From positions 1 through 51,795 of the forward strand of contig CAYITO010000002.1 of assembly GCA_964366355.1 (NCBI GenBank): a stretch of DNA of 51,795 nt, given 5' to 3'. The notes beneath the pieces are model-generated. The model was given only the letters and a program-made list of their open reading frames with translations. It was not told the DNA's origin and did no database searches. This DNA is from an uncultured archaeon (lineage in GTDB: Archaea > Aenigmatarchaeota > Aenigmatarchaeia > CG10238-14 > SCSR01). Made by a program: the position numbers and the translations under genes. How positions within the stretch are numbered: position 1 is the stretch's first letter; every line of letters starts with the position of its first letter. Shown here in pieces: positions 6,106 through 50,711 of this stretch.

Positions 6106-6459
6106 ATGCTACACTATTCTATGGAAGATAAGACTCTGTTGATCGAAGCTTTAGGAGATAGTCCAACATTGCGCATAATAGATTTTTTTCTAGATAACCG
6201 TAGTGACTATTCCAAAAAGGAAATTATAGAGGCGACGGGTATGTCGAAAACCACTTTCTATAAAATTTGGGGCGCATTGAAGGAATTTTCGGTAGTGAAA
6301 TCCACAAGGAAATATGGAAAAGCACAATTGTTTTCCTTGGATGAAAGTAATGATGTAGTTAAGAAACTAATGGCTTTAGAATTTGCGCTCGGGAAACAGG
6401 CGATGGAAAAGGCAGTTGTAGAAAATAAGATCGCCATAGATGCTAAAAAGAAGCAGTAG
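6106..6459 (+). CDS. Archaeal winged helix-turn-helix transcriptional regulator
   Basis: 117 aa. LRIIDFFLDNRSDYSKKEIIEATGMSKTTFYKIWGALKEFSVV has a wHTH pattern. Confidence 0.6.
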   Translation: MLHYSMEDKTLLIEALGDSPTLRIIDFFLDNRSDYSKKEIIEATGMSKTTFYKIWGALKEFSVVKSTRKYGKAQLFSLDESNDVVKKLMALEFALGKQAMEKAVVENKIAIDAKKKQ

Positions 6460-37924: not shown

Positions 37925-38605
37925 ATGAAAATTAGAACCCCTCTTCTATTGCTGAATCTAAAAGTTTATGACGAGGCTATAGAAAATTATTTGGGAATAG
38001 CAAAGGTTGCAAAAAAGGTTTCTGACGACTTGGGTGTTAGTATTGCTATCGCCCCTTCACATCTGACTTTGAAAGAAGTGTCGAAGATTTTGCCAACATT
38101 TGCACAAAATATAGAGCCATTCGAACCAGGTGCGCATACTGGCAGCGTGCTTGCAGAAGAGGTGAGGAAATCTGGAGCTGTTGGTTCATTAATCAATCAT
38201 TCGGAAAAAAGATTGAATCCAACTGATGTGAAAACTTGTATTGATAGATGCAGGCAAAATGAACTCATTTCAGTTGTTTGTGTTGCCAATGTAAGCGAAG
38301 CAAAGGAATATGCAAAGTTTCATCCTGATTTTATTGCAATCGAACCACCAGAACTTATAGGGGGCAAAGTTTCTGTTTCTACGGCAAATCCTAAGATTGT
38401 AACAGATAGTGTAACCGCGGTAAAAAATGTCTCTAAGAATGTGGAGGTTCTATGCGGAGCTGGTATAAAGACTAGAGAAGATATAGAGAAAGCATTGGAG
38501 TTGGGAGTAGTTGGTGTGTTGGTTAGCTCTGGAATTGTGAAAGACAGGAATGTGGAAAATGCTATTCGTGATGCAGCTAATAGTTTGAAATCAAAGAAAT
38601 ATTAA
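37925..38605 (+). CDS. tpiA: Triosephosphate isomerase (short archaeal form)
   Basis: 226 aa: LNLKVYDE ... INHSEKRL ... IAIEPPELIGG. Confidence 0.85.
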   Translation: MKIRTPLLLLNLKVYDEAIENYLGIAKVAKKVSDDLGVSIAIAPSHLTLKEVSKILPTFAQNIEPFEPGAHTGSVLAEEVRKSGAVGSLINHSEKRLNPTDVKTCIDRCRQNELISVVCVANVSEAKEYAKFHPDFIAIEPPELIGGKVSVSTANPKIVTDSVTAVKNVSKNVEVLCGAGIKTREDIEKALELGVVGVLVSSGIVKDRNVENAIRDAANSLKSKKY

Positions 38606-38650
38606 AACTAAGTTAACGCTGCTTTATTTTTTGTTCTATAAGTGTAAAAT

Positions 38651-39283
38651 CTACCGTGGTTTCAGATTCTTATTTTCATAAGGGCATAGCTTTTCTACAG
38701 GGCAAGCATAACATTTGGGAATTGGAGCTTTGCATATTTCTCTTCCGAATTGGACTAGTAATTGATTGACTATTGCCCTATTTTTAGGAATCAGCTTATG
38801 CAGTTTTTCTCTAATAATTTCAGGCCTATCTTTTTTATAAGCCATATGCCAACGCTTAGAAATTGTAGCAACGTGCGTGTCTACAGGAATTACATCCTTC
38901 CCATATGCAAACAATAAGATGATATCACTTGTCTTCTCTCCGACTCCGGGCAGTTTCATTAAATCTTCCTTTGTTCTCGGTACTTCTCCATGATATTTTT
39001 CTACAAGCATCCTGCATGTCTTAAGGATATTTTTAGACTTTTGCCTGTAAAATCCAACCGGATATACCAATTTTTGTATCTCTTTTGGTGACAATTTTAG
39101 CATTTTCTTTGGAGTATTTGCAATTTTCAACAATCTCTCTTGGGCAGGAAATGTAGTTTCATCTTTGGTCCTATGTGAAAGCATTCCATGAATCAAAACT
39201 TCGAATGGTTCTTCTTTCCTAACTTCTACAGGATAAAGCTTATTAAGAATGCTGATTATTTTAATTAGAGTCGCCCTTTTCAT
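38651..39283 (-). CDS. nth: Endonuclease III family DNA glycosylase (HhH-GPD, [4Fe-4S])
   Basis: LPGVGEKTSDIIL ... VDTHV and a C-terminal Cys cluster (CKAPIPKCYACPVEKLC). Confidence 0.8.
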   Translation of the reverse strand: MKRATLIKIISILNKLYPVEVRKEEPFEVLIHGMLSHRTKDETTFPAQERLLKIANTPKKMLKLSPKEIQKLVYPVGFYRQKSKNILKTCRMLVEKYHGEVPRTKEDLMKLPGVGEKTSDIILLFAYGKDVIPVDTHVATISKRWHMAYKKDRPEIIREKLHKLIPKNRAIVNQLLVQFGREICKAPIPKCYACPVEKLCPYENKNLKPR

Positions 39284-39333
39284 TATTCCACTTATGCGAC
39301 TGAAAGGTATAATATATATTCCTGCCTTGTTTA

Positions 39334-39957
39334 GTGGTGAGACTATTGATTAAAGCTGTAATCTTCGATTATTATGGCGTAATGTGCCCTAGGATTGCAC
39401 CGATCCTAGCTAGAGAAACGGCCAAACAATTCAAAGTGAGCTATTCTAAAATGACGCCGAAGATGGATAAGCTGCTGGATTTGATGGATGATAGAAGCAT
39501 TAACTTTTACGAGTATTGGGATAAATTGAAAAAAATATTCAAAAACAAAAATGCAAAATTATCAGAGCACAGCAAAATCTGGAGAGATGTTTCATTGGGA
39601 TTGAACTTAAATCCAAAAATGATAGATTTGGTGATAAAACTTAGGAAATTGGGTTACAAGGTTCCTGTGCTTACAAATGTTGCCAATAAAATGGCTGATT
39701 ATAACAAGATTAAAGGAAGATACAAGATATTCAAACCTGTTTTTCTATCTTACAAAATCGGACTGAAGAAACCCTCTCCAAAAATATTTCTGCATGCAGT
39801 AAAGAAATTGAAACTGAAACCAGATGAATGCATCTTTATTGACGACAAGAAAAATTATCTTGCGGGGGCAAGAGCTGTTGGTATCAAAACTATCCTTTTT
39901 GAAAATTCCACCCAACTCAAAAAAGAATTGAAAAGATTTGGTATCAATGGTGTTTGA
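39334..39957 (+). CDS. HAD-superfamily hydrolase
   Basis: AVIFDYYGVM (motif I DxD-like) ... IFIDDKKNYLAGARAVGIKTILF (motifs III/IV). Confidence 0.6.
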   Translation: MVRLLIKAVIFDYYGVMCPRIAPILARETAKQFKVSYSKMTPKMDKLLDLMDDRSINFYEYWDKLKKIFKNKNAKLSEHSKIWRDVSLGLNLNPKMIDLVIKLRKLGYKVPVLTNVANKMADYNKIKGRYKIFKPVFLSYKIGLKKPSPKIFLHAVKKLKLKPDECIFIDDKKNYLAGARAVGIKTILFENSTQLKKELKRFGINGV

Positions 39958-42748
39958 GACTCTCAGCAAAGGATTGCAGAAAGTAATACAAAAGAGATTC
40001 AAGGAGCCCACACTCCCTCAGAAATTGGCCATTCCATCTATAGCATCTGGTTTGAATACTCTTGTGATCGCTCCCACTGGATCTGGCAAGACAGAAGCGG
40101 CGCTGCTTAAAATTTTTGACAAAATCATAACAGAAAAACCAAAGGCTATCAGCGCGCTTTATGTCACTCCCATGCGAGCGCTCAACAGGGATATGCTGGA
40201 TAGAATTCTGTGGTGGGCAAAGGAATTGGAGCTCGAGGTATCGGTCAGGCATGGCGATACATCTCCCCATGAAAGGCGATTGCATGTTGAATTTCCCCCA
40301 GACATCATGATAACAACACTGGAACAATTGCAACCGATGCTGACAGGCAAGAGGATAAGAGAGCTTCTCAGGAATGTTAAATATGTGATTCTAGATGAAG
40401 TACACGAGGCTGTGGATTCAAAGCGCGGGGTGCAACTCACAATTGCATTAGAACGGATAAGGGAGTTGTGCGGAGATTTTCAGCTGATAATGCTGTCCGC
40501 TACTGTGGCAAACCCGGAAGAGGTCGGCGCGTTCTTTTCGGGAGGTAGGGTTGTAAAATTAGTGAAAGCTGATACTGTAAAGCAAGTTGATATAAAAGTT
40601 ATAAGTCCAAGGCCCAAGCCGGAAGATAATAAGATAGCCGGCAAGATATTTTCGTCCAAGGAAACCTCGGCAAGATTGAGAACTATAATGGAGTTAATCA
40701 AAGAATCAAAAGCGACATTGGTATTTACAAATACAAGGGATTTTGCAGAAATACTTGCGAGTCGAATAAAAGCTCTTGATAAAAAGTTCCCAGTGGAAAT
40801 TCATCACAGCTCCTTGAGCAAGGAAGTAAGAATTAAGGCTGAAAAGGATTTTAAACAGGAGAAGACAAAATCCTTGATTGCAACCAGCAGCCTACAGCTC
40901 GGAATTGACATAGGAGCGGTAGATTTGGTTTTGCAGTATATGTCGCCACGCCAGGTGACGCAATTGATACAAAGGGTTGGGAGATCCGGCCATGAACTTT
41001 CCAGAATAAGCAAAGGGATTGTGATCGCAGCTGACGAAGACGATATTTTTGAATCGGCGGTCATAGCCCGAAAGGCTTTGAATAGTGAATTGGAGCCGTT
41101 GGTTTTGCATGAAAACTCGTATGACGTTTTGGCGCATCAATTGATAGGCCTGACTTTTGACTTTGGCACTGTTGAATTGGAAAAGGCTTACACAATCATA
41201 AAGCGTGCATATCCGTACAGAAACTTGACATACGCGGAATTTTTGGAAGTCTGCAAGCAGTTGGATAGATTGGGATTGATTTTTCTGAATGGCTACATAA
41301 GGAAAAAGACAAGAGGATTTAGCTATTATTTTGAAAACCTTTCAACCATACCAACATTAAAGCAGTACAGAATTTTCAACATCATCGACAACTCATTCGT
41401 CGGTGTTTTGGACGAGGAATTCATTGCACTGCACGGAGACCCAAACACCACATTCATAGTGAAAGGCCAGCCTTGGAAGATAATTACCGTAGAAGGTGAC
41501 AAGGTCATGGTCGAGCCTGTCGAGGACATAGAAGCAGCCATACCAGGATGGGAGGGTGAATTAATTTCTGTTTTATATGATGTGTCGCAGGAAGTTGGCA
41601 GGTTAAGGGGTTTGATTAAGAACATGTTGAGGAGCAAAAGTGAAAATGAAACTATCCATGAAATAATGGGCCTTTATCCTGTTGACGAGAATTGTGCAAA
41701 GGACATGTTAAAATTAGTAAAAAACCAGGCCAAGTTTGGAATTGTTCCTGACGACAAGACAATTTTGGTAGAGGATTTCGAGAATTTAGTTGTCATAAAT
41801 TCATGTTTCGGAACAAATGTCAATGAAACTCTGGGAAGGTTTATTGTTGCATTGCTGACTAGCAGGGTTGGTTCAGTCGGATTGAAAACTGACCCTTACA
41901 GAATCATGATCCAATTCCAGCAGAAGAATGTAAGCCTGATTAAAGATATTCTGTTGAACACGAAACCGGAGCATCTGCAAAGCTATCTTGAGATGAGTTT
42001 AAGCAAAAGTGAATTGTTCCAATGGAAATTTGTGCATGTGGCGAAAAGGTTCGGCGCCATATCAAGAGATGCAGAATTTGGCAAAGTTAAAATGCAGAGA
42101 ATAATCGACGATTTTGCGGGCACGCCGATATTCAAAGAAACACTGAAAGAATTGGAGACTGAGAAGCTTGACATTGAAAAGGCCATTGATATTTTGAGGG
42201 AAATACAAAACAAGGAAATTTCTGTAATCTTCAAACCTGGGTTGTCTCCAATTGGCAAAATAGGGGTGCAGCACAAATATGCAGAAGTTATAGGTCCTGA
42301 GAAGCCTGAGCGTGAGATTTTTGAATTGTTCAAGCAAAGATTGCTCAATACAAAAATTAGGTTGGTGTGCGTTAATTGCGGCAATTGGGATCAAGTTATC
42401 GCTGTAAAAGACGTCGATAATAATGTGAAATGCAAAAAATGCGATGCAAGATTGCTTGCAGTATTGAAGGAAAGGTGGACGGGCGCTACAAAAATCATCA
42501 AGAAAGTCCTGAGAAAATCGCCATTAACTCAAGAAGAACGGATGAAACATGAAAGAGCTAAACAAAGGGCAGAACTTTTCATAGTCTACAGACGCAAGGC
42601 TGCATTAGCAATGGCCGGAAGAGGAATAGGGGCAACTACCGCCAAAAGAATTTTGGGCAAATACCACAAAGATGAAGATGATTTGATGAGAGCTATTCTA
42701 CAGGCAGAAAGGATTTTTATTAAAAATAGGCGTTTCTGGAGCGTCTGA
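39938..42748 (+). CDS. Lhr-like superfamily-2 ATP-dependent helicase with a C-terminal zinc ribbon
   Basis: APTGSGKTEAAL (motif I), DEVHE (II), SAT (III), QRVGRSGH (VI). The C-terminus has CVNCGNW ... CKKCDARL. Confidence 0.75.
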   Translation: MVSMVFETLSKGLQKVIQKRFKEPTLPQKLAIPSIASGLNTLVIAPTGSGKTEAALLKIFDKIITEKPKAISALYVTPMRALNRDMLDRILWWAKELELEVSVRHGDTSPHERRLHVEFPPDIMITTLEQLQPMLTGKRIRELLRNVKYVILDEVHEAVDSKRGVQLTIALERIRELCGDFQLIMLSATVANPEEVGAFFSGGRVVKLVKADTVKQVDIKVISPRPKPEDNKIAGKIFSSKETSARLRTIMELIKESKATLVFTNTRDFAEILASRIKALDKKFPVEIHHSSLSKEVRIKAEKDFKQEKTKSLIATSSLQLGIDIGAVDLVLQYMSPRQVTQLIQRVGRSGHELSRISKGIVIAADEDDIFESAVIARKALNSELEPLVLHENSYDVLAHQLIGLTFDFGTVELEKAYTIIKRAYPYRNLTYAEFLEVCKQLDRLGLIFLNGYIRKKTRGFSYYFENLSTIPTLKQYRIFNIIDNSFVGVLDEEFIALHGDPNTTFIVKGQPWKIITVEGDKVMVEPVEDIEAAIPGWEGELISVLYDVSQEVGRLRGLIKNMLRSKSENETIHEIMGLYPVDENCAKDMLKLVKNQAKFGIVPDDKTILVEDFENLVVINSCFGTNVNETLGRFIVALLTSRVGSVGLKTDPYRIMIQFQQKNVSLIKDILLNTKPEHLQSYLEMSLSKSELFQWKFVHVAKRFGAISRDAEFGKVKMQRIIDDFAGTPIFKETLKELETEKLDIEKAIDILREIQNKEISVIFKPGLSPIGKIGVQHKYAEVIGPEKPEREIFELFKQRLLNTKIRLVCVNCGNWDQVIAVKDVDNNVKCKKCDARLLAVLKERWTGATKIIKKVLRKSPLTQEERMKHERAKQRAELFIVYRRKAALAMAGRGIGATTAKRILGKYHKDEDDLMRAILQAERIFIKNRRFWSV

Positions 42749-43195
42749 TCATCTAAGTGAATTCTCAAATTTTCTAAATTTCAAAATGGTAAAAACCAAA
42801 ACAGCTGATACTGTAGCTAAAATATAACTTCCGGCACCCGCAGCTAGTCCTATGCCCGCAACAGTCCATAAGCTGGCTGCAGTAGTTATTCCTTGCACAT
42901 GCCCTCTGCTACCAATAATGCTACCCGCACCAATGAAACCTATTCCAGTAACTATGGCTGCTGCAATTCTTGCAGGGTCTAAGCTGAATTCAAAAATTGA
43001 AATCACTGTGAACAAACATGCCCCAAGCGAAACAAGCATGTGCGTTCTTAAGCCGGCTGGTTTGTGGGACACTTGCCTTTCCCATCCAACTACTGCCCCC
43101 AACAATACAGAAAGTATCAATCTAAAAACGGGTTCGACAACAGACGATTGACCAACAAAAAATTCCGCAGTAGTACCAACCAAGTCCAGCGTCAT
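42749..43195 (-). CDS. mgtC: MgtC/SapB-family membrane protein
   Basis: RLILSVLLGAVVGWERQ ... is a typical MgtC N-terminal region. Four TM helices. Confidence 0.75.
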   Translation of the reverse strand: MTLDLVGTTAEFFVGQSSVVEPVFRLILSVLLGAVVGWERQVSHKPAGLRTHMLVSLGACLFTVISIFEFSLDPARIAAAIVTGIGFIGAGSIIGSRGHVQGITTAASLWTVAGIGLAAGAGSYILATVSAVLVFTILKFRKFENSLR

Positions 43196-43247
43196 AATAA
43201 AATTTTATTGAAGTTAGTTTAAATAAATAGCATTCGATATTTTCACT

Positions 43248-43841
43248 ATGCGCGGCAAGTTTGTCGTCATATACGGAATTAACAACATTGGAAAAACAAC
43301 TCAGGCCAAGCTTGTGGTTCAATATTTTCTAGGCAAAGGTTTGAAGGCGGATTATATGAAGTATCCGATATATGATATGAAACCTTCCGGTCCATTTTTG
43401 GATGGTGTCTTGAGAAGCGGCAAGCAGGAAATTTCCGAGGAAGAGTTGCAGATGTGGTTTACTGTTAACAGATTGCAATTCCAGCCTATTTTGAAAAAGA
43501 AACTTAATCATGAAATAAACATTGTTGCTGAGGATTACATAGGAACTGGACTGGCATGGGGCTCGGCGAAAGGTGCGGACTATAATTGGTTGAAGTCAAT
43601 TAACTCAACATTGATGAAAGAGGATATGGGGATTCTGCTTGATGGCGAAAGGTTTGTATTCGCAAAAGAAGATCGACACATTCATGAAATTGATGCGAAG
43701 CTTATGGAAAAAGTGAGAAAAAGGTTCATTGACATAGGAAGGGAATTTGACTGGCACATAGTAAATGCGAATCAGGGCAATGAAAAAGTTTTTTCAGACA
43801 TATTGTCCATCTTGCGAGAAAATAGGATTTTTGAATTTTAG
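43248..43841 (+). CDS. tmk: Thymidylate kinase-family P-loop kinase
   Basis: MRGKFVVIYGINNIGKTTQAKLV is the Tmk-like N-terminus. It has a DRH/DYIGTG region and a lid. Confidence 0.6.
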   Translation: MRGKFVVIYGINNIGKTTQAKLVVQYFLGKGLKADYMKYPIYDMKPSGPFLDGVLRSGKQEISEEELQMWFTVNRLQFQPILKKKLNHEINIVAEDYIGTGLAWGSAKGADYNWLKSINSTLMKEDMGILLDGERFVFAKEDRHIHEIDAKLMEKVRKRFIDIGREFDWHIVNANQGNEKVFSDILSILRENRIFEF

Positions 43842-43885
43842 GATAATATAATTCCTTTGTTGATGTAGTGAAAAGTTTATATTAA

Positions 43886-43901
43886 TGTGATACGTATCAC
43901 A
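43886..43901. promoter_or_regulatory. 16-bp perfect palindrome tgtgatacgtatcaca between a TATA-like box (tttatatta, about 43876) and the ATG at 43906
   Basis: Read directly. The palindrome ends 4 nt before the start codon, implying a leaderless mRNA with an operator over the TSS. Confidence 0.6.
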
Positions 43902-43905
43902 TAGT

Positions 43906-44115
43906 ATGAAAGAGTTTGTCTTGCTTTTTGACATACCTAGAGAAGAGCACAAAGTTGAAGTTAAAGCTTGGAGAGATTTGCACAGAATGGGTGCTAGGAT
44001 GATACAACATTCAGTTTGGAAGTCAGATAAACTTCAAAATTTGATAGATGTAGCGATATTCATTAAAAAATCCGGCGGTATGGCAAGAATCCTAGAAGAA
44101 AGGTTTGTATTTTGA
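43906..44115 (+). CDS. Small Cas2-like protein, solitary (no cas1 and no CRISPR array in the window)
   Basis: FVLLFDIPREEHKVEVKAWRDLHRMGARMIQHSVWKSD parallels the Cas2 N-terminus (hhhhYDI ... RR.KV.K.L...G.RvQ.SVFEC). 69 aa, shorter than typical Cas2. Family assignment is tentative. Confidence 0.4.
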   Translation: MKEFVLLFDIPREEHKVEVKAWRDLHRMGARMIQHSVWKSDKLQNLIDVAIFIKKSGGMARILEERFVF

Positions 44116-44213
44116 TGGGTCTGCCCGGATTCGAACCGGGGTTTACGCGATTTTGAAAGTTTCGTCAACGCGCCGTCCTTTGCGGATTTTTTAAACCGCT
44201 AGACTACAAACCC
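44116..44213 (-). tRNA. tRNA-Val (anticodon GAC) with a 12-nt intron at 37/38 and a possible second insertion in the D-loop
   Basis: Minus-strand sequence GGGTTTG TA GTCT [AGCGGTTTAAAAAATCCGCAAA] GGAC G GCGCG TTGACG[AAACTTTCAAAA]T CGCGT AAAC CCCGG TTCGAAT CCGGG CAGACCC A. The acceptor and T arms are perfect. U33 and purine-37 are present. Confidence 0.65.
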
Positions 44214-44249
44214 ATTAATCAAATTAATATAAATAGTTTAAATAATTAT

Positions 44250-44966
44250 ATGGATTTTTTCAGCCATCTGGATTTGCCCCATGTAAAGTACGCATTCTAT
44301 GACCTATTATTGAACAACAAGGGAATTGCAGAAGACATACAAAAAGAAATAAAACCGTTATCGGCACAGAATTTGTTGGTAATAGGAAATGTGGGAGTGG
44401 CTAGGGAGTTGATGAATAAAGGGTTTTTTGTGACAATCTTTGCCATGTCAGATGAGATGAAGAATTATGCGAGAAAGCAGTTGCCAACTGCGAATGTAAT
44501 TGTTGGGGATGTCAAAAATTCTAATTTTAGGGAAAAATTCGATTCAATAATTTGTTTGGGAGATACTTTATCCCACATTGTAGATGATAGAGATGTTCAT
44601 ATGGCATTGGCAAATTTTCATAAGATGCTGAAATATGGCGGTGTAATTTTGCTTGAAAATTTGACAGCATCAAAAGTTTTGGAGAATACCAGTGAAAATA
44701 TCATAACTAAGGTTGAAAACAACGATGTTAAAATTAAAAGGACTTCTTCGCTGAAGATTGTGGGCGAGAAGCCACCAACTGCACTTTGGAAAGTTACCTA
44801 TGAATTGATGCAGAATGGTCAGAGAAATATTTATGAAGAAAATTTTAGGATAAGAGGTTTTACTGAAAATGAAATCGAGAGATTTTTGAAAGCAACAAAT
44901 TTTGAATTGGTAAAGTTCTTGACCAGCCAAAAGGGCAATAATTTTGTGACTATTGCTAGAAAATAA
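44250..44966 (+). CDS. Class I SAM-dependent methyltransferase
   Basis: LLVIGNVGVARELMNKG (motif I) ... IICLGDTLSHI. Confidence 0.65.
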   Translation: MDFFSHLDLPHVKYAFYDLLLNNKGIAEDIQKEIKPLSAQNLLVIGNVGVARELMNKGFFVTIFAMSDEMKNYARKQLPTANVIVGDVKNSNFREKFDSIICLGDTLSHIVDDRDVHMALANFHKMLKYGGVILLENLTASKVLENTSENIITKVENNDVKIKRTSSLKIVGEKPPTALWKVTYELMQNGQRNIYEENFRIRGFTENEIERFLKATNFELVKFLTSQKGNNFVTIARK

Positions 44967-44977
44967 AATTATTTTAT

Positions 44978-45601
44978 TTAAATGCCATCCGCGTCTAATT
45001 CTCCGAAAAGTTCTCTAAAGGCAGGTGGAATTTCAATTTTCTTTCTTGGTTCCATTTTTAAAACTTGAACTATTTCATCAACAGTGCTGACATCTTCGGG
45101 TTTCGTATCGAGAAATAATCCTACAAAGGCTGTATCCTCAGCTTGCGTACTATCATAACCCATAATTAAATAAGGTGTTTGCTCCAAGCCAGATTGTCTC
45201 TCTAAAAGACCTACGCCACCTCCTGTGTACAACTTAGTTTTGACAACTACACATCCCAATGATCTATTTTCAATTCTAAGTTGAATACTACTTAATCCAT
45301 ACCCATCTGAACGTAAGCTGTCTGCTAAATTTTCCGCTTTACCAACATCGTATCCTTCTGCTCGCCTACCAAAGACCACTGCAGTTAATTTAGAAGGCAA
45401 CCAATCAATTGAGGCAATACCAAACAAATTGTAACCATATTTATCTGCAACTTCTGTAAGAATAGAGTAACTCTGTTGTGATCCACTATTTTCTATAACT
45501 GCTCTATTAGCACGTAAGTCATTCAAAACTTGAAGAACACTAATTCCTTCATACATAATAATGACATTATTTATCGTTGAATATTTTAAAGTTGAGCTCA
45601 A
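44978..45601 (-). CDS. Hypothetical protein (no recognised family)
   Basis: 207 aa ORF with ordinary codon usage. It overlaps the start of the downstream methyltransferase gene by 4 bp. Confidence 0.4.
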   Translation of the reverse strand: MSSTLKYSTINNVIIMYEGISVLQVLNDLRANRAVIENSGSQQSYSILTEVADKYGYNLFGIASIDWLPSKLTAVVFGRRAEGYDVGKAENLADSLRSDGYGLSSIQLRIENRSLGCVVVKTKLYTGGGVGLLERQSGLEQTPYLIMGYDSTQAEDTAFVGLFLDTKPEDVSTVDEIVQVLKMEPRKKIEIPPAFRELFGELDADGI

Positions 45602-46113
45602 GTTATCTTATACAAATAAGTATAAAAATGGCCTGTTTTAATTTTACTAACTTCATTCCAACCTTTGAAGATATGAGATGCAGAAATTATTCTAGTACCT
45701 TTTTTTAATTCCCTCTTCAGTTTTGGCTTCAACTTTTCGTTCAATCTTGGAGTAAGATATATGATAACAACGCTAGCTCCGGACAAATTTTGCTTGAACA
45801 AATCACCTTTGATTAAATTCACTTTATTGGAAACATTGTGTTTTTTAACATTCCATTTAGACAGTTCATGAAGCAAAAAATTTTTCTCTATTCCAACGCA
45901 TCTAGCCCCATACTCCTTAGCTGCTGCAATGAGCACTCTGCCATCACCAGAACCTAGATCGTATACAACATCATTTTTCTTGACTTTGGCCAATTTCAAA
46001 ATTTTTCTAACAGTTTCCATAGGCAGTGGCACGAAAAACCCCGATTGTGTGGCGATGGAAATTATCCCCAAAACCAGCGGTATTTCAAAGAGCAACAGCC
46101 ATTCATTTGCCAT
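45598..46113 (-). CDS. Membrane-anchored class I SAM-dependent methyltransferase
   Basis: N-terminal TM helix, then VYDLGSGDGRVLIAAA (motif I) ... VVIIYL. Confidence 0.65.
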   Translation of the reverse strand: MANEWLLLFEIPLVLGIISIATQSGFFVPLPMETVRKILKLAKVKKNDVVYDLGSGDGRVLIAAAKEYGARCVGIEKNFLLHELSKWNVKKHNVSNKVNLIKGDLFKQNLSGASVVIIYLTPRLNEKLKPKLKRELKKGTRIISASHIFKGWNEVSKIKTGHFYTYLYKIT

Positions 46114-46148
46114 TTAATAATATTCTATTTTCTAGAATTTAGAAGCAG

Positions 46149-46245
46149 CGCCTAGGGCGAGATTTGAACTCGCAAGGTCTTTCGACCGCTGGTTACTCGC
46201 CAAAGGATAGCAAACCAGTGCCATACCAGGTTAGGCGACCTAGGC
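46149..46245 (-). tRNA. tRNA-Ser (anticodon GCU), class II with a long variable arm and a 13-nt intron at 37/38
   Basis: Minus strand: GCCTAGG TC GCC TAACCTGGTAT GGC A CTGGT TTGCTA[TCCTTTGGCGAGT]A ACCAG CGGTCGAAAGACCTT GCGAG TTCAAAT CTCGC CCTAGGC G. All stems are perfect and the total is 97 nt. Confidence 0.85.
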
Positions 46246-48667: not shown

Positions 48668-49813
48668 TCATCGTATGATGTCAATCCCCAAAGTACTGCT
48701 AAGCTCTCTTACAACAGGCCTGTCGTAGCTTACTGGGCCTAGAATGTAAGGTGATTTTACTCCAGTAATTATCGCGATTACTTGGATCTTGCCCTTGAAT
48801 TCAGGCAAAATTCTTGCTCCCCAGAACACTGTTGCTGAGGGGTCCAAGTGCTGCGCTACTGTTTCACCGATGAGATTAACCTCTTCGAGCCTCATGTCTT
48901 CTCCTCCGGTGATGTGCACAAGTGCACCTGCTGAACCTGCGTAATCTACTTCCAACAACGGATTCATCAATGCTTTTGTGATTGAATCTCGTGCCCGGTC
49001 GCTGCTGTTGGATTCACCCACTCCTATTGCCGCCACCCCGCCTGCACTCATTACCGACTTTATGTCTGCGTAATCGAGGTTTACCAAGCTAGGCAGTGTT
49101 ATAGTTTCTGTGATTCCTTTTACCATGCTGGCAACGAGTTCGTCTGCTATTGCAAACGCCTGCTGGACTGATAGATTGCCTGCATATTTCAGCAGTTTGT
49201 CATTTTCAATGACTATTACTGTGTCTGTCACCTGTCTAAGGGCTGCCAAGCCGTCTTCGGCCTTGTTTATTCTTGCACCTTCGACCTTGAAAGGCATAGT
49301 TACTACTGCGATTACGATAGCTCCCGTTGACTTTGCCATCTCGCAAACCACCGGAATGCTACCTGTTCCTGTTCCTTTGCCCAAACCGGCAATGGCGAAC
49401 AGCAAATCTACACCATCGAGAACCTCTTTGATTTCATTTCTGTTCTCTTCGGCCGATTTCCTGCCTATTTCAGGATGCCCGCCGCAACCCAACCCGCGTG
49501 TCAATTCTCTACCGATGAGAATCTTCTTGTCAGCTTTACCCACGGCCAAGTGTTTCGCATCTGTATTCAAAGAAACAGTTACGGCACCTTCGACTCCCAT
49601 CTCGGTGAGTCTTGTTACAGTGTTCTGTCCTGCTCCTCCACAACCTACAACAGCGATTTGGGCCTTCTTTATTTGAAAGCCGAACTCTTGTTCTGCTAGT
49701 TTATAGTAATCAACGTTGGCAAATGTTGCACCTGAGGTTGATTCCAATTTGAACCTTGTTGTAGGAGATTCTTCGTTAGGCTTTCCTAGCGCGCTTCTTA
49801 CTATTGATTCCAT
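48668..49813 (-). CDS. ftsZ: Cell division GTPase FtsZ
   Basis: GCGGAGQN ... GLGKGTGTGS tubulin/FtsZ signature. The real start is likely the ATG at 49813, preceded by AGGAGG (49821-49826, minus strand), rather than the TTG at 49837. Confidence 0.9.
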   Translation of the reverse strand: MESIVRSALGKPNEESPTTRFKLESTSGATFANVDYYKLAEQEFGFQIKKAQIAVVGCGGAGQNTVTRLTEMGVEGAVTVSLNTDAKHLAVGKADKKILIGRELTRGLGCGGHPEIGRKSAEENRNEIKEVLDGVDLLFAIAGLGKGTGTGSIPVVCEMAKSTGAIVIAVVTMPFKVEGARINKAEDGLAALRQVTDTVIVIENDKLLKYAGNLSVQQAFAIADELVASMVKGITETITLPSLVNLDYADIKSVMSAGGVAAIGVGESNSSDRARDSITKALMNPLLEVDYAGSAGALVHITGGEDMRLEEVNLIGETVAQHLDPSATVFWGARILPEFKGKIQVIAIITGVKSPYILGPVSYDRPVVRELSSTLGIDIIR

Positions 49814-49939
49814 TTTTTCTCCTCCTATTCTCTTCAAAATATATTTTGTATCATCGAAAACCCCTTTATAAGGTTTCGATAAACTACTTTTACGAGGATT
49901 AGTCGATTATAAAAACTAGTGACTAAGACCATTCGTTAC

Positions 49940-49997
49940 AAACCCGTAGTTAAGTTCGACGTGAATTTTAAAGTTCGTTTAAACCCGTAGTTAAGTT
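49940..49997. promoter_or_regulatory. Two exact 17-bp direct repeats (aaacccgtagttaagtt at 49940-49956 and 49981-49997) upstream of ftsZ
   Basis: Read directly. The repeats are spaced 41 bp apart and lie about 125-185 bp upstream of the ftsZ start. Confidence 0.6.
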
Positions 49998-50151
49998 GAT
50001 ATCAGTAAAACTAATTTCTAGTGGGAATATTTAAAGGATTTCTAATTTATAATGTATATCTTGCAGTAGATAATTGCGGGAATTTGGAAAATTTTCGGAA
50101 AAAACACAATTAATTGTATAAAGAATTTGCTTGGATACTAGCTGTAGTTTG

Positions 50152-50184
50152 CAACACGTGTTACATTATTTGTCGCACGTGCGA
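50152..50184. promoter_or_regulatory. Tandem palindromes sharing a CACGTG core: aacacgtgtt (50152-50161) and gtcgcacgtgcgac (50171-50184)
   Basis: Read directly. They lie at the 3' boundary of the truncated PEPC ORF, in the region upstream of ftsZ. Confidence 0.5.
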
Positions 50185-50189
50185 CATCA

Positions 50190-50711
50190 TTAAAATTTTC
50201 TATATAAAAATTTTGTGCTTAACCCAAAAAACCCCTTACAGAACCCGCTCTTACAATATTTTCTTCCAGACTTGTAAAATTCCGTCACCCTAATCAACGA
50301 GTTTACTGATGTGACCATTGGTAAAGCCACTTCAAAGATAGGTGATATACCATCATTATAGAATTCCTTTGCGGCATCAAAGCTCCTTGGAATGGATTCC
50401 AAAGTTTCTATGAGAATCTTCGCCTCATTCTTCTCCACATCAGGATTAGGCACTCTGAGTGTTAGGAAGAAATCTTTACCAAGCACATTTCTTGAAAAGA
50501 AGGGCTCGTATCTGGTGAAAAGCTTCTTGACAACATAATTGTCCACTTCCTTGCCTTCGCAGTCCCATAATTGCTCCTGGCATTTCAAGTGTGAATAGGC
50601 ATAAAAGGCTTCCTTTATCTCATCCTCTCCTTCTAGTATAGAATTTGTAGCAAAGAATGGTGTACGCACATTATCGGGATGTTGTGTTGACATTGTTCTT
50701 GGTATCTGCAT
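50190..50711 (-). pseudogene. Archaeal-type phosphoenolpyruvate carboxylase, N-terminal remnant (about 150 of roughly 500 aa)
   Basis: IPRTMSTQHPDN ... EAFYAYSHLKCQEQLWDCEGKEVDNYVVKKLF ... LRVPNPDVEKNEAKILIETLESIPRSFD matches the archaeal PEPC N-terminus. Similarity is lost near the 3' end, and no continuation ORF exists before ftsZ. Confidence 0.55.

What the first reader, a model, noticed from the sequence alone, without database searches (positions are those of the whole stretch)
43842..44216. Solitary Cas2-like ORF with a 16-bp palindromic operator, abutting a doubly interrupted tRNA-Val
- Protein: the 69-aa protein parallels the Cas2 N-terminal pattern (hhhh-D-I ... K-V-x-V-K ... G-A-R-M-I-Q-H-S-V-W). 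No cas1 or CRISPR repeats are nearby.
- Operator: the ATG is preceded, 4 nt upstream, by the perfect palindrome tgtgatacgtatcaca, downstream of a TATA-like box. This suggests an autoregulated leaderless gene.
- tRNA junction: the stop codon is 1 nt from the 3' end of the minus-strand tRNA-Val(GAC) at 44116-44213. tRNA 3' ends are a classic integration hotspot.
- tRNA structure: that tRNA appears to carry a canonical 12-nt intron, plus extra sequence forming a hairpin in the D-loop.
Basis: partly seen in the sequence, partly recalled or inferred. Interest (0 to 1): 0.6.

Follow-up and report, generated by a model that had tools for sequence, protein, structure and literature searches.

The report
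Mini Cas2-fold autorepressor beside two-intron tRNA
A 69-residue archaeal protein with the Cas2 shape is most likely a tiny DNA-binding repressor of its own gene rather than a CRISPR part; it belongs to a multi-copy family in DPANN archaea in which each copy has its own matching palindromic DNA site, and the neighbouring tRNA-Val has two ordinary archaeal introns.

Summary
The ORF 43906-44115 encodes a real, conserved 69-aa protein. Its predicted fold (pLDDT 93) matches Cas2 best. By profile comparison it is homologous to the N-terminal domain of the chromate repressor ChrB (hhalign 98.2%, E 4.6e-14). It misses the curated Cas2 cut-offs, and no CRISPR array was found.

The palindrome (18 bp, 43885-43902) is not remarkable within the window alone. 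Comparison makes it remarkable. About 45 homologues in Aenigmatarchaeota genomes, often 3-5 per genome, each have a perfect dyad (A)TGT-NNN-A-C|G-T-NNN-ACA(T) directly after a BRE/TATA box. There are 21 different versions. All keep exact symmetry and none shows G-T wobble.

Operator divergence tracks helix α1 (residues 12-22) and not the rest of the protein. The pairing follows chemical logic: basic residues at positions 12, 18 and 19 go with G:C pairs. ChrB residues R18 and R23, which are needed for repression, fall in this same helix.

Best reading: a stand-alone ChrB-N/Cas2-fold dimeric autorepressor of a leaderless gene. This would be a lineage-specific transcription-factor family with re-programmable specificity.

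The tRNA-Val(GAC) has a canonical 12-nt intron and a 14-nt D-loop intron. A syntenic relative with identical exons lacks the D-loop intron, which confirms it. The idea of integration at the tRNA is not supported.

The parts
43870..43883 (+). Putative archaeal promoter: purine-rich BRE-like gaaaag (43870-43875) plus TATA box TTTATATT (43876-43883).
   Evidence: Read directly. The motif aGAAAAGTTTATAt is conserved at the same place upstream of the dyad in most of the ~45 homologous loci. The TATA box starts 13-18 nt 5' of the dyad centre. Promoter function is inferred, not measured.
43885..43902 (.). Operator: perfect 18-bp dyad ATGTGATAC|GTATCACAT, with its centre between 43893 and 43894. It lies between the TATA box and the start codon, at about -21 to -4 of the predicted transcription start.
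   Evidence: The same architecture, with 21 different inner sequences, occurs at 47 loci. Core columns 5-12 are symmetric in all 45 distinct sequences but one. Columns 8-10 use all four Watson-Crick pairs and show no G-T. The covariation score is 0.491 against 0.122 for shuffles, reached by 0 of 500 shuffles.
43906..44115 (+). Gene for a 69-aa stand-alone ChrB-N-like / Cas2-fold protein. Predicted elements: β1 4-9, α1 12-27, β2 31-34, β3 37-40, α2 43-55, β4 59-64. The ATG lies 12 nt from the dyad centre and has no Shine-Dalgarno sequence, so the mRNA is predicted to be leaderless.
   Evidence: 14 homologues; pLDDT 93.4; hhalign to the ChrB N-terminus 98.2%; 96 clusters in 1.84 billion proteins.
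44116..44213 (-). Pre-tRNA-Val(GAC) gene, 98 nt. The anticodon is at 44164-44166. The mature length is 72 nt, and CCA is not encoded. The gene is convergent with the ORF, and its 3' end touches the ORF's stop codon.
   Evidence: Rfam scores 45.7 bits. The minimum-free-energy fold is the cloverleaf with both intron helices: -35.5 kcal/mol, z = -2.98. An orthologue in L061 has identical exons.
44180..44193 (-). Non-canonical 14-nt intron (UAAAAAAUCCGCAA) in the D-loop, between U20a and A21 by my numbering. It forms a relaxed bulge-helix motif: a 4-bp helix GCGG/CCGC, a 3' bulge AAA, and the 5' splice site 2 nt after the helix. The mature D-loop is AGCGGUUA.
   Evidence: Splice sites predicted from the BHB rule coincide exactly with the only possible indel placement against the intron-less allele in L061, GTAGTCTAGCGGTT-AGGAC. 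The helix and bulge appear in the MFE fold. A precedent is the D-loop 20b/21 intron beside a canonical intron in M. kandleri tRNA-Glu (PMC5829648).
44151..44162 (-). Canonical 12-nt intron (AAACUUUCAAAA) at position 37/38. The helix is UUGA/UCAA and the 3' bulge is A-A-U38.
   Evidence: L061 has a 13-nt intron at the same position.

Best explanation
The 69-aa protein is a stand-alone version of the DNA-binding N-terminal domain of ChrB-type repressors, which has the Cas2 (ferredoxin-like) fold.

Proposed mechanism (inferred):
- The protein acts as a symmetric dimer.
- Helix α1 (residues 12-23) of each subunit reads one half of the 18-bp dyad ATGTGATAC|GTATCACAT.
- The dyad sits between the TATA box and the transcription start of the protein's own leaderless gene.
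- Occupying it blocks recruitment of RNA polymerase, which gives negative autoregulation.

The gene is one member of a multi-copy family restricted to Aenigmatarchaeota (DPANN). In that family a few α1 residues (12, 15/16, 18, 19, 20, 22) and the inner base pairs of the operator have changed together. As a result the paralogues in one genome have mostly different, non-cross-reacting sites. Operator-type dyads at other promoters suggest that the proteins also regulate further genes.

Shown here: the fold, the homology to ChrB-N, the conservation and symmetry of the dyad, its fixed position relative to the TATA box, and the α1-operator covariation.

Inferred only: dimerisation, direct binding, repression, and the leaderless transcription start.

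The adjacent tRNA-Val is an unrelated, ordinary two-intron archaeal tRNA gene.
For: Fold and family:
- The AF2 model has pLDDT 93.4 with topology β-α-β-β-α-β.
- hhalign of the family profile against ChrB N-termini gives 98.2%, E 4.6e-14, over 67 columns. Window residues 1-67 align with ChrB residues 1-70.
- Distant family members pass the Pfam thresholds for ChrB_N and for PaaX_M, the 'central Cas2-like domain'.

Operator:
- 47 loci carry the dyad directly 3' of a conserved BRE/TATA box.
- There are 21 distinct 16-mers.
- Core symmetry is essentially perfect, all four Watson-Crick pairs occur at three positions, and there is no G-T wobble. This points to DNA-level recognition rather than an RNA hairpin.
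- Across 737 kb there are 70 perfect palindromes of 16 bp or more, against 20.5 expected.
- The dyad's position is fixed relative to the TATA box, while the start codon lies either at +10 to +18 (leaderless) or at +23 to +31, where a GGTG Shine-Dalgarno motif is often present.

Co-evolution:
- Operator distance correlates with distance in residues 12-22 (r = 0.60).
- The partial Mantel coefficient, controlling for residues 30-69, is 0.596 (p = 5e-4). The reverse test gives -0.08, not significant.
- R/K at residue 19 goes with C at column 8 in 18/18 cases and 0/25 otherwise.
- R/K at residue 12 goes with a central C|G in 36/36 cases and 0/7 otherwise.
- K/R at residue 18 goes with C at column 10 in 13/14 cases.
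- Parsimony gives at least 8 co-switches for the column 8 / residue 19 pair.
- Paralogues within one genome mostly have different half-sites.

Experimental anchor (ChrB):
- ChrB is a dimeric autorepressor that binds a promoter with an inverted repeat at -37 to -4 of its own ATG.
- The R18A and R23A mutants lose repression (PMC3817168).
- The paper's mutagenic primers give V-R18-Q-R-T-W22-R23-A-L. That is the same helix and the same numbering as the family's W22-R23, where R23 is invariant.
- In E. coli Cas1-Cas2, residues N10, R14 and R16 of Cas2 contact the duplex (PMC6395717). By their numbering I place them at the β1/α1 junction.
Against: - There is no binding, footprint or expression data for any family member, and no dimer or DNA-complex model could be made with these tools.
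- The protein has no sensor domain, so it is unclear what would modulate it.
- D9, at the Cas2 catalytic position, is invariant in the family but is T/S/N in ChrB. A nuclease activity therefore cannot be excluded.
- The α1-operator correlation could be inflated by mosaic recombination that moves the 5' end of the gene together with the operator. The parsimony counts also rest on a tree built from 58 residues.
- None of the orphan dyads could be matched to a paralogue with the same half-site in the same, incomplete, genome.
- One distant stand-alone ChrB_N protein (P0076) has no dyad upstream.
Confidence: 0.62

Rival explanations
1. The protein is a solitary Cas2/VapD-type nuclease, such as a toxin or an RNA-processing enzyme. 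The promoter palindrome would then be bound by some other regulator.
For: The best structural matches are Cas2 and then VapD. TIGR01573/PADLOC Cas2 gives a sub-threshold hit, E 3.6e-4 to 1.4e-3. D9, equivalent to the metal-binding Asp of Cas2, is invariant. Multi-copy small genes with palindromic promoters resemble toxin-antitoxin loci.
Against: No conserved partner (antitoxin) gene lies next to the family genes. Neighbours differ from locus to locus, and the window gene is monocistronic. Each paralogue would need its own separate regulator with matching specificity, yet the covariation is with the protein's own helix α1. Homology to the ChrB DNA-binding domain is far stronger than to Cas2.
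Confidence: 0.13
2. The gene is a relic or outpost of a CRISPR adaptation module: a true Cas2 that works with a cas1 gene and an array elsewhere in the genome.
For: The Cas2 fold and the hhhh-D-x-P...Q-x-S-V-W pattern are present.
Against: It falls below the curated Cas2 cut-offs. There is no CRISPR-like array in the window or in any of the 54 sequences, 737 kb in total. There are 3-5 diverged copies per small genome, each with a private promoter dyad, which is not how cas2 behaves. The closest family is ChrB_N.
Confidence: 0.03
3. The palindrome is a structural nucleic-acid element rather than a protein operator. Candidates are an RNA hairpin in a 5' leader, a DNA cruciform or recombination site, or a terminator of the upstream gene.
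For: Perfect dyads with compensatory changes are also what a conserved hairpin would show.
Against: There is no G-T/G-U wobble in 360 core cells. The stem would have no loop. The element sits 0-4 nt after the TATA box and so lies upstream of the expected transcription start. No T-run follows it. The inner bases co-vary with amino acids of helix α1 in a chemically sensible way, with Arg/Lys opposite G, which a pure nucleic-acid structure does not explain.
Confidence: 0.05
4. The family members are DNA-binding proteins whose main role is not autorepression. They might be activators or architectural factors at divergent promoters such as that of the 2-oxoacid dehydrogenase E2 gene, or partners of a separate sensor protein.
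For: In 8 loci the gene is divergent from the E2 gene, with the dyad in the roughly 65-nt shared intergenic region. Orphan dyads lie 44-56 nt upstream of E1α, ParA/MinD-like and retropepsin-like genes.
Against: The one constant target is the protein's own promoter. The site position between the TATA box and the start is the classical archaeal repressor position (established knowledge). The window gene has no divergent partner.
Confidence: 0.12

Closest known systems
ChrB N-terminal domain (Pfam PF20229), from the chromate-responsive repressor ChrB of Ochrobactrum tritici and Cupriavidus
   Same: It is homologous over the whole 69 residues: hhalign 98.2%, E 4.6e-14. It shares the P11...W22-R23...G29-A30...GGxA signature. 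ChrB is a dimeric autorepressor with an inverted repeat just upstream of its own ATG. R18 and R23 in helix α1 are needed for repression (PMC3817168).
   Different: ChrB is about 310-325 aa, bacterial, and carries a helical extension plus a C-terminal chromate-sensing domain. The window protein is the bare 69-aa domain and is archaeal. Its own Pfam score is below threshold (13.6 bits against 23). It has D9 where ChrB has T/S/N. It belongs to a multi-copy family with diversified perfect dyads.
Cas2 (CRISPR adaptation protein; TIGR01573 / PF09827)
   Same: The fold and strand order are the same. It shares the Asp at the end of β1 and a Q-x-S-V-aromatic β2 motif. The Cas2 dimer also contacts duplex DNA through N10, R14 and R16 (PMC6395717), which by their numbering I place at the β1/α1 junction.
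   Different: It is below the curated thresholds. It lacks the C-terminal β5/tail of Cas2, being 69 aa against about 90-110. It has no cas1 or array context. Cas2 binds DNA without sequence specificity.
PaaX central Cas2-like domain (PF20803), from the phenylacetyl-CoA-responsive repressor
   Different: From general knowledge, PaaX binds DNA through a separate N-terminal winged helix. The Cas2-like domain is internal and is not known to read DNA.
VapD (the toxin of VapXD; Cas2-related RNase)
   Same: It shares the fold and is a lower-ranked Foldseek hit (6zi1, 3ui3). It is a solitary small gene outside CRISPR loci.
   Different: VapD has a partner antitoxin, VapX. No partner is seen here, and there is no evidence of RNase function.
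Papillomavirus E2 / EBNA1 DNA-binding domains, and small dimeric autorepressors such as Arc, MetJ and CopG (functional analogues, from general knowledge)
   Same: These are small dimers that read short palindromes with one element per half-site. E2 uses a recognition helix presented by a β-α-β-β-α-β domain. They autoregulate at their own promoters.
   Different: No homology was shown. The dimer geometry of the present family is unknown.
Archaeal pre-tRNAs with a canonical intron plus a non-canonical D-loop intron, for example M. kandleri tRNA-Glu(UUC) at 20b/21
   Same: The canonical 37/38 intron and the relaxed bulge-helix intron in the D-loop are of the same kind (PMC5829648). tRNA gene disruption is common in DPANN lineages (same paper).
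   Different: The tRNA species (Val-GAC) and the lineage differ. Splicing has not been tested here.

Membership tests
Cas2 (CRISPR-associated) | Ferredoxin-like β1-α1-β2-β3-α2-β4 Cas2 fold | tested here: met
Cas2 (CRISPR-associated) | Score above the curated family cut-off (TIGR01573 24.5 bits; PF09827 23.8 bits) | tested here: not met
   TIGR01573 gives 18.9 bits, E 0.0014. There is no PF09827 hit at E <= 10. The family profile against PDB Cas2 gives E 0.057-0.19.
Cas2 (CRISPR-associated) | Genomic association with cas1 and a CRISPR array | tested here: not met
   There is no array in the window or in 737 kb of 54 related sequences. No Cas1 appeared among the 25 (of 72) PADLOC families listed for the window ORFs. 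Whole genomes could not be scanned.
Cas2 (CRISPR-associated) | Conserved acidic residue at the end of β1 | tested here: met
   D9 is invariant in 14 homologues and in all 48 locus-encoded copies.
ChrB N-terminal domain (PF20229) | Sequence homology to ChrB_N | tested here: met
   hhalign gives 98.2%, E 4.6e-14, over 67 columns. Distant family members P0099, P0105, P0098 and P0076 pass the Pfam threshold. The window protein itself scores only 13.6 bits against a cut-off of 23.
ChrB N-terminal domain (PF20229) | α1 W22-R23 motif and a basic position 18, the residues shown to be needed for repression in ChrB | tested here: met
   W22-R23 is present and R23 is invariant. Position 18 is variable and co-varies with operator column 10. 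The ChrB numbering was taken from the paper's primers.
ChrB N-terminal domain (PF20229) | Full ChrB architecture: helical extension plus the C-terminal Chrome_Resist sensor domain, next to chrA | tested here: not met
   The protein ends at residue 69. There is no chrA among the called neighbours of the gene in L003 (about window 36.6-49.8 kb).
ChrB N-terminal domain (PF20229) | Binds an inverted repeat in its own promoter and represses it | not testable with these tools
   Only the sequence-level correlate is shown: a perfect dyad between the TATA box and the ATG, conserved and co-varying.
Archaeal intron-containing tRNA | Cloverleaf that scores as a tRNA once the inserts are allowed | tested here: met
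   RF00005 scores 45.7 bits against a gathering score of 29. The MFE fold is the cloverleaf.
Archaeal intron-containing tRNA | Bulge-helix-bulge or relaxed motif at each exon-intron junction | tested here: met
   There is a 4-bp helix UUGA/UCAA with a 3-nt bulge at 37/38. There is a 4-bp helix GCGG/CCGC with a 3-nt bulge AAA in the D-loop. In both cases the 5' site lies in a loop, which is the relaxed form (and direct reading).
Archaeal intron-containing tRNA | The insert is a discrete unit that is absent from an otherwise identical gene | tested here: met
   The tRNA-Val(GAC) in L061 has identical exons and lacks exactly TAAAAAATCCGCAA.
Archaeal intron-containing tRNA | The introns are removed in vivo | not testable with these tools
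   This needs small-RNA sequencing.

The most novel reading that the evidence does not exclude
The Cas2 fold, in its minimal 69-residue form, is a self-sufficient sequence-specific DNA-reading module. Aenigmatarchaeota have expanded it into their own family of orthogonal transcription factors. A simple residue-to-base code in helix α1 (positions 12, 18, 19, 20 and 22 against the centre and three inner base pairs of each half-site) has been rewritten many times together with the operator. This would make it a new class of archaeal transcription factor. It would also hint that Cas2, ChrB and PaaX descend from a small dimeric DNA-binding protein.
Probability: 0.45. Interest if true: 0.75.

Novelty: new variant of a known kind. 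Interest (0 to 1): 0.62.

Why it matters
Known archaeal transcription factors are almost all helix-turn-helix, ribbon-helix-helix or AbrB-type proteins. DPANN archaea have very few recognisable regulators.

A stand-alone Cas2-fold repressor family, with 3-5 copies in genomes of about 0.8 Mb, would fill part of that gap. It would also give a function to a set of unannotated 'hypothetical' mini-genes.

Each copy carries its own perfect operator, and operator and helix α1 change together. The family is therefore a natural experiment in how DNA-binding specificity is re-programmed. The predicted code can be tested directly with short oligonucleotides and point mutants.

The result also locates the DNA-binding surface of ChrB-type metal regulators, for which there is no structural explanation yet. 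It links that surface to the DNA-contacting edge of Cas2.

The tRNA part is ordinary. It is a clean worked example of a D-loop intron that default tRNA finders miss.

Tried and rejected
- ARAGORN in default mode found no tRNA. With introns allowed it forced a single 22-nt intron and called the gene tRNA-Leu(CAA) with poor stems. I rejected that call in favour of the Rfam/BHB solution, which the intron-less allele confirms.
- Pfam on the window protein gave nothing significant. phmmer against PDB gave nothing.
- The afdb50 fold library was unavailable.
- Searching the window for further copies of the GATA-type operator, allowing up to 3 mismatches, found only the operator itself.
- tblastn with 110 family proteins found a single copy in the window and no hidden gene behind the orphan dyads.
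- An IMG/VR scan found no viral relatives.
- I looked for a conserved neighbour, such as an antitoxin or sensor. There is none. The only recurrent context is the 2-oxoacid dehydrogenase operon, in 8 loci.
- I tested whether abutting a tRNA is a family trait. It holds for only 3 of about 48 loci, each with a different tRNA.
- I looked for the dyad in a distant stand-alone ChrB_N protein (P0076). It is absent.
- Literature searches for Cas2-like + ChrB, Cas2-like + PaaX, and PaaX + Cas2 gave no paper; a search for Aenigmarchaeota + transcription factor + palindrome returned 8 papers, and none of the six listed looked relevant by title or abstract.
- The protein sources give no name for these proteins.
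Full report
OBSERVATION.

The ORF at 43906-44115 (+) encodes 69 aa. The 16-bp palindrome tgtgatacgtatcaca lies at 43886-43901. It extends to a perfect 18-mer at 43885-43902. It is preceded by gaaaag-TTTATATT (43870-43883) and followed 3 nt later by the ATG.

Within the window alone this is not statistically special. There are five perfect palindromes of 16 bp or more, against 1.2 expected. An 18-mer turns up in about a fifth of simulated windows.

Rfam finds a tRNA at 44116-44213 (-) at 45.7 bits, with inserts in the D-loop and the anticodon loop. It finds a second tRNA at 46149-46245. ARAGORN in default mode sees neither. The ORF's stop codon (44113-44115) touches the tRNA's discriminator base (44116). 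No CRISPR-like repeats occur in the window.

THE PROTEIN.

It is a real gene. Fourteen homologues at 60-100% identity were found in 5.8 billion sequences. An exhaustive profile search of 1.84 billion representatives found only 96 clusters. None of them carries a name.

Invariant residues include D9, R23, Q34, S36, W38, K54-K55, G57-G58 and I62-L-E-E65.

At the sequence level, the family profile's four best PDB matches are all Cas2, in one register (E 0.057-0.19). TIGR01573 scores 18.9 bits, below its 24.5 cut-off.

The more distant members of the family give the better address. P0099, P0105, P0098 and P0076 pass Pfam's threshold for ChrB_N (PF20229). P0099 and P0105 also pass for PaaX_M, the 'PaaX central Cas2-like domain'. 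Plasmid records annotate the P0099-type proteins as ChrB.

A profile-profile comparison of the family with five ChrB N-termini gives 98.2% probability and E 4.6e-14. All of residues 1-67 are aligned, with a single 4-residue gap.

THE OPERATOR.

A scan of one genome per GTDB species returned 52 loci. All those that carry a taxon name are Candidatus Aenigmatarchaeota (kingdom Nanobdellati, DPANN). Several loci often come from one genome. For example, four lie on the 786-kb contig JACPJU010000001.1 and five come from binchicken_co21_401.

Nearly every copy has a perfect 16-22-bp palindrome of the form (A)TGT-NNN-A-C|G-T-NNN-ACA(T), directly 3' of a conserved aGAAAAGTTTATAt. Forty-seven loci carry 21 different 16-mers.

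I treated the two arms as 'pairs' in an ungapped alignment. Columns 5-12 are complementary in all 45 distinct sequences but one. Columns 8, 9 and 10 each use all four Watson-Crick pairs. Not one G-T occurs. The covariation score is 0.491 against 0.122 for shuffles (0 of 500 reach it), and about 0.06-0.10 when the partner columns are slid. The lack of wobble argues for symmetry read on DNA, not for an RNA hairpin.

Across the 737 kb in hand there are 70 perfect palindromes of 16 bp or more, against 20.5 expected. The excess is this class, sitting in front of family genes.

The dyad keeps its distance from the TATA box, which starts 13-18 nt 5' of the dyad centre. The start codon falls into two classes. 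In one it lies +10 to +18 from the centre with no Shine-Dalgarno sequence; the window gene is at +12. In the other it lies at +23 to +31, where a GGTG motif is often present. Archaeal transcription usually starts about 25 nt downstream of the TATA centre (established knowledge). The window's mRNA should therefore start at or next to the ATG, and the dyad would occupy about -21 to -4. That is the classical position of an archaeal repressor. This part is inference.

WHO BINDS IT.

Paralogues in one genome mostly carry different half-sites:
- JACPJU01: AGATA, AACA, CCCA, CCGA.
- JAHLMT01: AAAA, CCGA, CCAA, GTATAC.
- CAYRSM01: AAAA, AGAA, CATA, AATA.
- One exception: JAGHAA01 has CTCA twice.

A separate regulator for each copy would require a second, equally expanded family. 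The simpler reading is that each protein reads its own site.

Three results support this.

First, operator divergence correlates with divergence of residues 12-22, the N-terminal half of helix α1 (r = 0.60). It correlates only weakly with residues 30-69 (r = 0.15). The partial Mantel coefficient controlling for residues 30-69 is 0.596 (p = 5e-4). The converse is -0.08.

Second, the strongest residue-base associations run in order along the helix. Residues 12 and 35 go with the central step. Residues 18, 15 and 17 go with column 10. Residues 19, 20, 22 and 16 go with columns 9 and 8. The associations also make chemical sense:
- R/K19 occurs in all 18 proteins whose operator has C at column 8 (G on the other strand), and in none of the other 25.
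- R/K12 occurs in all 36 with a central C|G, and in none of the 7 with T|A or G|C.
- K/R18 occurs in 13 of 14 with C at column 10.
- Q20 goes with a pyrimidine at column 9 in 9 of 10 cases.

On a tree built from the other residues, the column 8 / residue 19 pair switches at least 8 times, always together. That tree rests on 58 residues and is weak.

Third, there is an experimental anchor. ChrB of O. tritici is a dimeric repressor of its own operon. It binds a promoter whose inverted repeat lies at -37 to -4 of the chrB ATG, and the R18A and R23A mutants are constitutive (PMC3817168). The paper's mutagenic primers read ...E-N-A-T-V-R18-Q-R-T-W22-R23-A-L-K-A-S-G. A Klebsiella plasmid ChrB reads L-P11-T-E-Q-A-T-L-R18-M-R-V-W22-R23. 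With the hhalign register, ChrB R23 is the family's invariant R23. ChrB R18 is the family's variable 'specificity' position 18.

In bona fide E. coli Cas2, N10, R14 and R16 contact the protospacer duplex, and R14A/R16A abolishes spacer uptake (PMC6395717). By their numbering I place these residues at the β1/α1 junction. The same edge of the fold would therefore touch DNA in all three families.

CONTEXT AND POSSIBLE TARGETS.

Only one family gene lies in the window, and its GATA-type dyad does not recur there. There is no conserved partner gene.

In eight loci (L007, L008, L011, L012, L013, L022, L032, L050) the gene is divergent from the E2 gene of a 2-oxoacid dehydrogenase operon. The dyad lies in the roughly 65-nt shared intergenic region. 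At this orthologous position the dyads differ: GATA, AGATA, AAGA, AAAA, CACA.

Dyads of the same architecture, but without a family gene behind them, lie in four places:
- 56 nt upstream of E1α (L007).
- 44 nt upstream of a ParA/MinD-like gene (L039).
- 47 nt upstream of a retropepsin-like gene (L009).
- In the window at 50150-50165 and 50171-50186, upstream of ftsZ.

None could be matched to a paralogue in the same, incomplete, genome. A wider regulon is therefore only a lead. Several decayed copies keep their dyad (L052, L055, L057). No relative occurs in IMG/VR.

THE tRNA.

The 98-nt gene folds, by minimum free energy, into a cloverleaf (-35.5 kcal/mol, z = -2.98).

The anticodon stem is extended by a 4-bp helix UUGA/UCAA with a 3-nt bulge A-A-U38. 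This places a 12-nt intron (AAACUUUCAAAA, 44151-44162) at the canonical 37/38 position.

Inside the D-stem, a 4-bp helix GCGG/CCGC with a 3-nt bulge AAA predicts a 14-nt intron (UAAAAAAUCCGCAA, 44180-44193). Removing it leaves the standard D-loop AGCGGUUA and a 72-nt tRNA-Val(GAC).

A metagenome scan with the D-arm and anticodon-stem exons found L061. This contig is syntenic with window 38036-46124 at about 75% nucleotide identity. Its tRNA-Val(GAC) has the same exons apart from one compensatory T-stem pair. It has a 13-nt anticodon intron and no D-loop insert. The only possible placement of the indel equals the BHB-predicted intron.

A canonical intron plus a relaxed D-loop intron (20b/21) is already known from M. 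kandleri tRNA-Glu. DPANN lineages are noted for disrupted tRNA genes (PMC5829648). This part of the finding is correct but ordinary.

THE JUNCTION.

Convergent tRNAs abut the stop codon in the window (Val), L020 (Lys) and L049 (Arg), but not in the other roughly 45 loci. The closest orthologues with the same GATA dyad sit elsewhere, in the dehydrogenase operon.

In L061 the slot between tmk and tRNA-Val holds 590 nt of unrelated, frameshifted sequence instead of the family gene. The slot is therefore variable. I saw no integrase, no duplicated tRNA end and no element borders. Integration at the tRNA is not supported.

VERDICT.

The best explanation, at about 0.6 confidence, is a stand-alone ChrB-N/Cas2-fold dimeric autorepressor of a leaderless gene. 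It belongs to an Aenigmatarchaeota-specific, multi-copy family whose helix α1 and operator co-evolve.

The rivals are less likely for the reasons given under each:
- a Cas2/VapD-type nuclease regulated by something else;
- a CRISPR relic;
- a nucleic-acid structure;
- a regulator whose main role is not autorepression.

Limits: there are no binding or expression data, no dimer model and no complete-genome regulon. Recombination may confound the covariation.

I found no description of such stand-alone proteins in the searchable literature. I rate it a new variant of a known kind, the ChrB_N / Cas2-like domain.

Noticed in passing
window 50150-50165 and 50171-50186: Two adjacent operator-type dyads: TGCAACACGTGTTACA with one asymmetric pair, and TGTCGCACGTGCGACA, which is perfect. 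Their specificity classes differ from that of the window's own gene. No family gene lies behind them. They sit about 315-335 nt upstream of ftsZ (48668-49837, -). They could be the relic promoter of a lost copy, or a target of paralogues encoded elsewhere.
   Followed up: partly
window 50190-50711 (-): A truncated archaeal-type PEP carboxylase. The 173-aa ORF matches only positions 1-147 of the 493-position PEPcase_2 model. The orphan dyads begin 4 nt after its stop, so they lie at the breakpoint of a pseudogene.
   Followed up: partly
window 49940-49956 and 49981-49997: A 17-nt direct repeat, aaacccgtagttaagtt, occurs twice, 41 nt apart. It lies in the 350-nt non-coding stretch between the orphan dyads and ftsZ. 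Rfam has no match there at gathering score.
   Followed up: no
window 46149-46245 (-): A second tRNA, Ser(GCU), with a long variable arm and a canonical 13-nt intron. ARAGORN in default mode also misses it.
   Followed up: partly
L061 5820-6409: In a syntenic relative (about 75% nucleotide identity), the slot between tmk and tRNA-Val holds 590 nt of different sequence with two short frameshifted ORFs and no Pfam hit. The family gene is absent there.
   Followed up: partly
L007, L008, L011, L012, L013, L022, L032, L050 (around the family gene): The family gene sits inside a 2-oxoacid dehydrogenase operon, divergent from the E2 gene and between E2 and E1β/E1α. In L007 a second dyad of another class (TGTAATACGTATTACA, 6376-6391) lies 56 nt upstream of E1α.
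   Followed up: partly
L052, L055, L056, L057, L058; L011 10001: Decayed family copies occur: internal deletions, or C-terminal fragments of 18-40 residues. L052, L055 and L057 still have a dyad upstream. In L011 the codon at the expected start position is ACG instead of ATG. This suggests active birth and death of copies.
   Followed up: no
protein P0095 (376 aa): The family domain (residues 7-70) is fused in one gene call to a complete Cbf5 pseudouridine synthase. This could be a real fusion or a read-through of two adjacent genes.
   Followed up: no
L020 2201-2295 (-) and L049 10212-10284 (-): Two other paralogues also end 1 nt from the 3' end of a convergent tRNA: Lys(CUU) and Arg(GCG) by ARAGORN. 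Together with the window's gene, that makes three different tRNAs in three different specificity classes.
   Followed up: partly
L039 13973-14392 (+): A HEPN-domain ORF ends 2 nt before an orphan dyad (TGTTATACGTATAACA). That dyad precedes a ParA/MinD-like gene.
   Followed up: no
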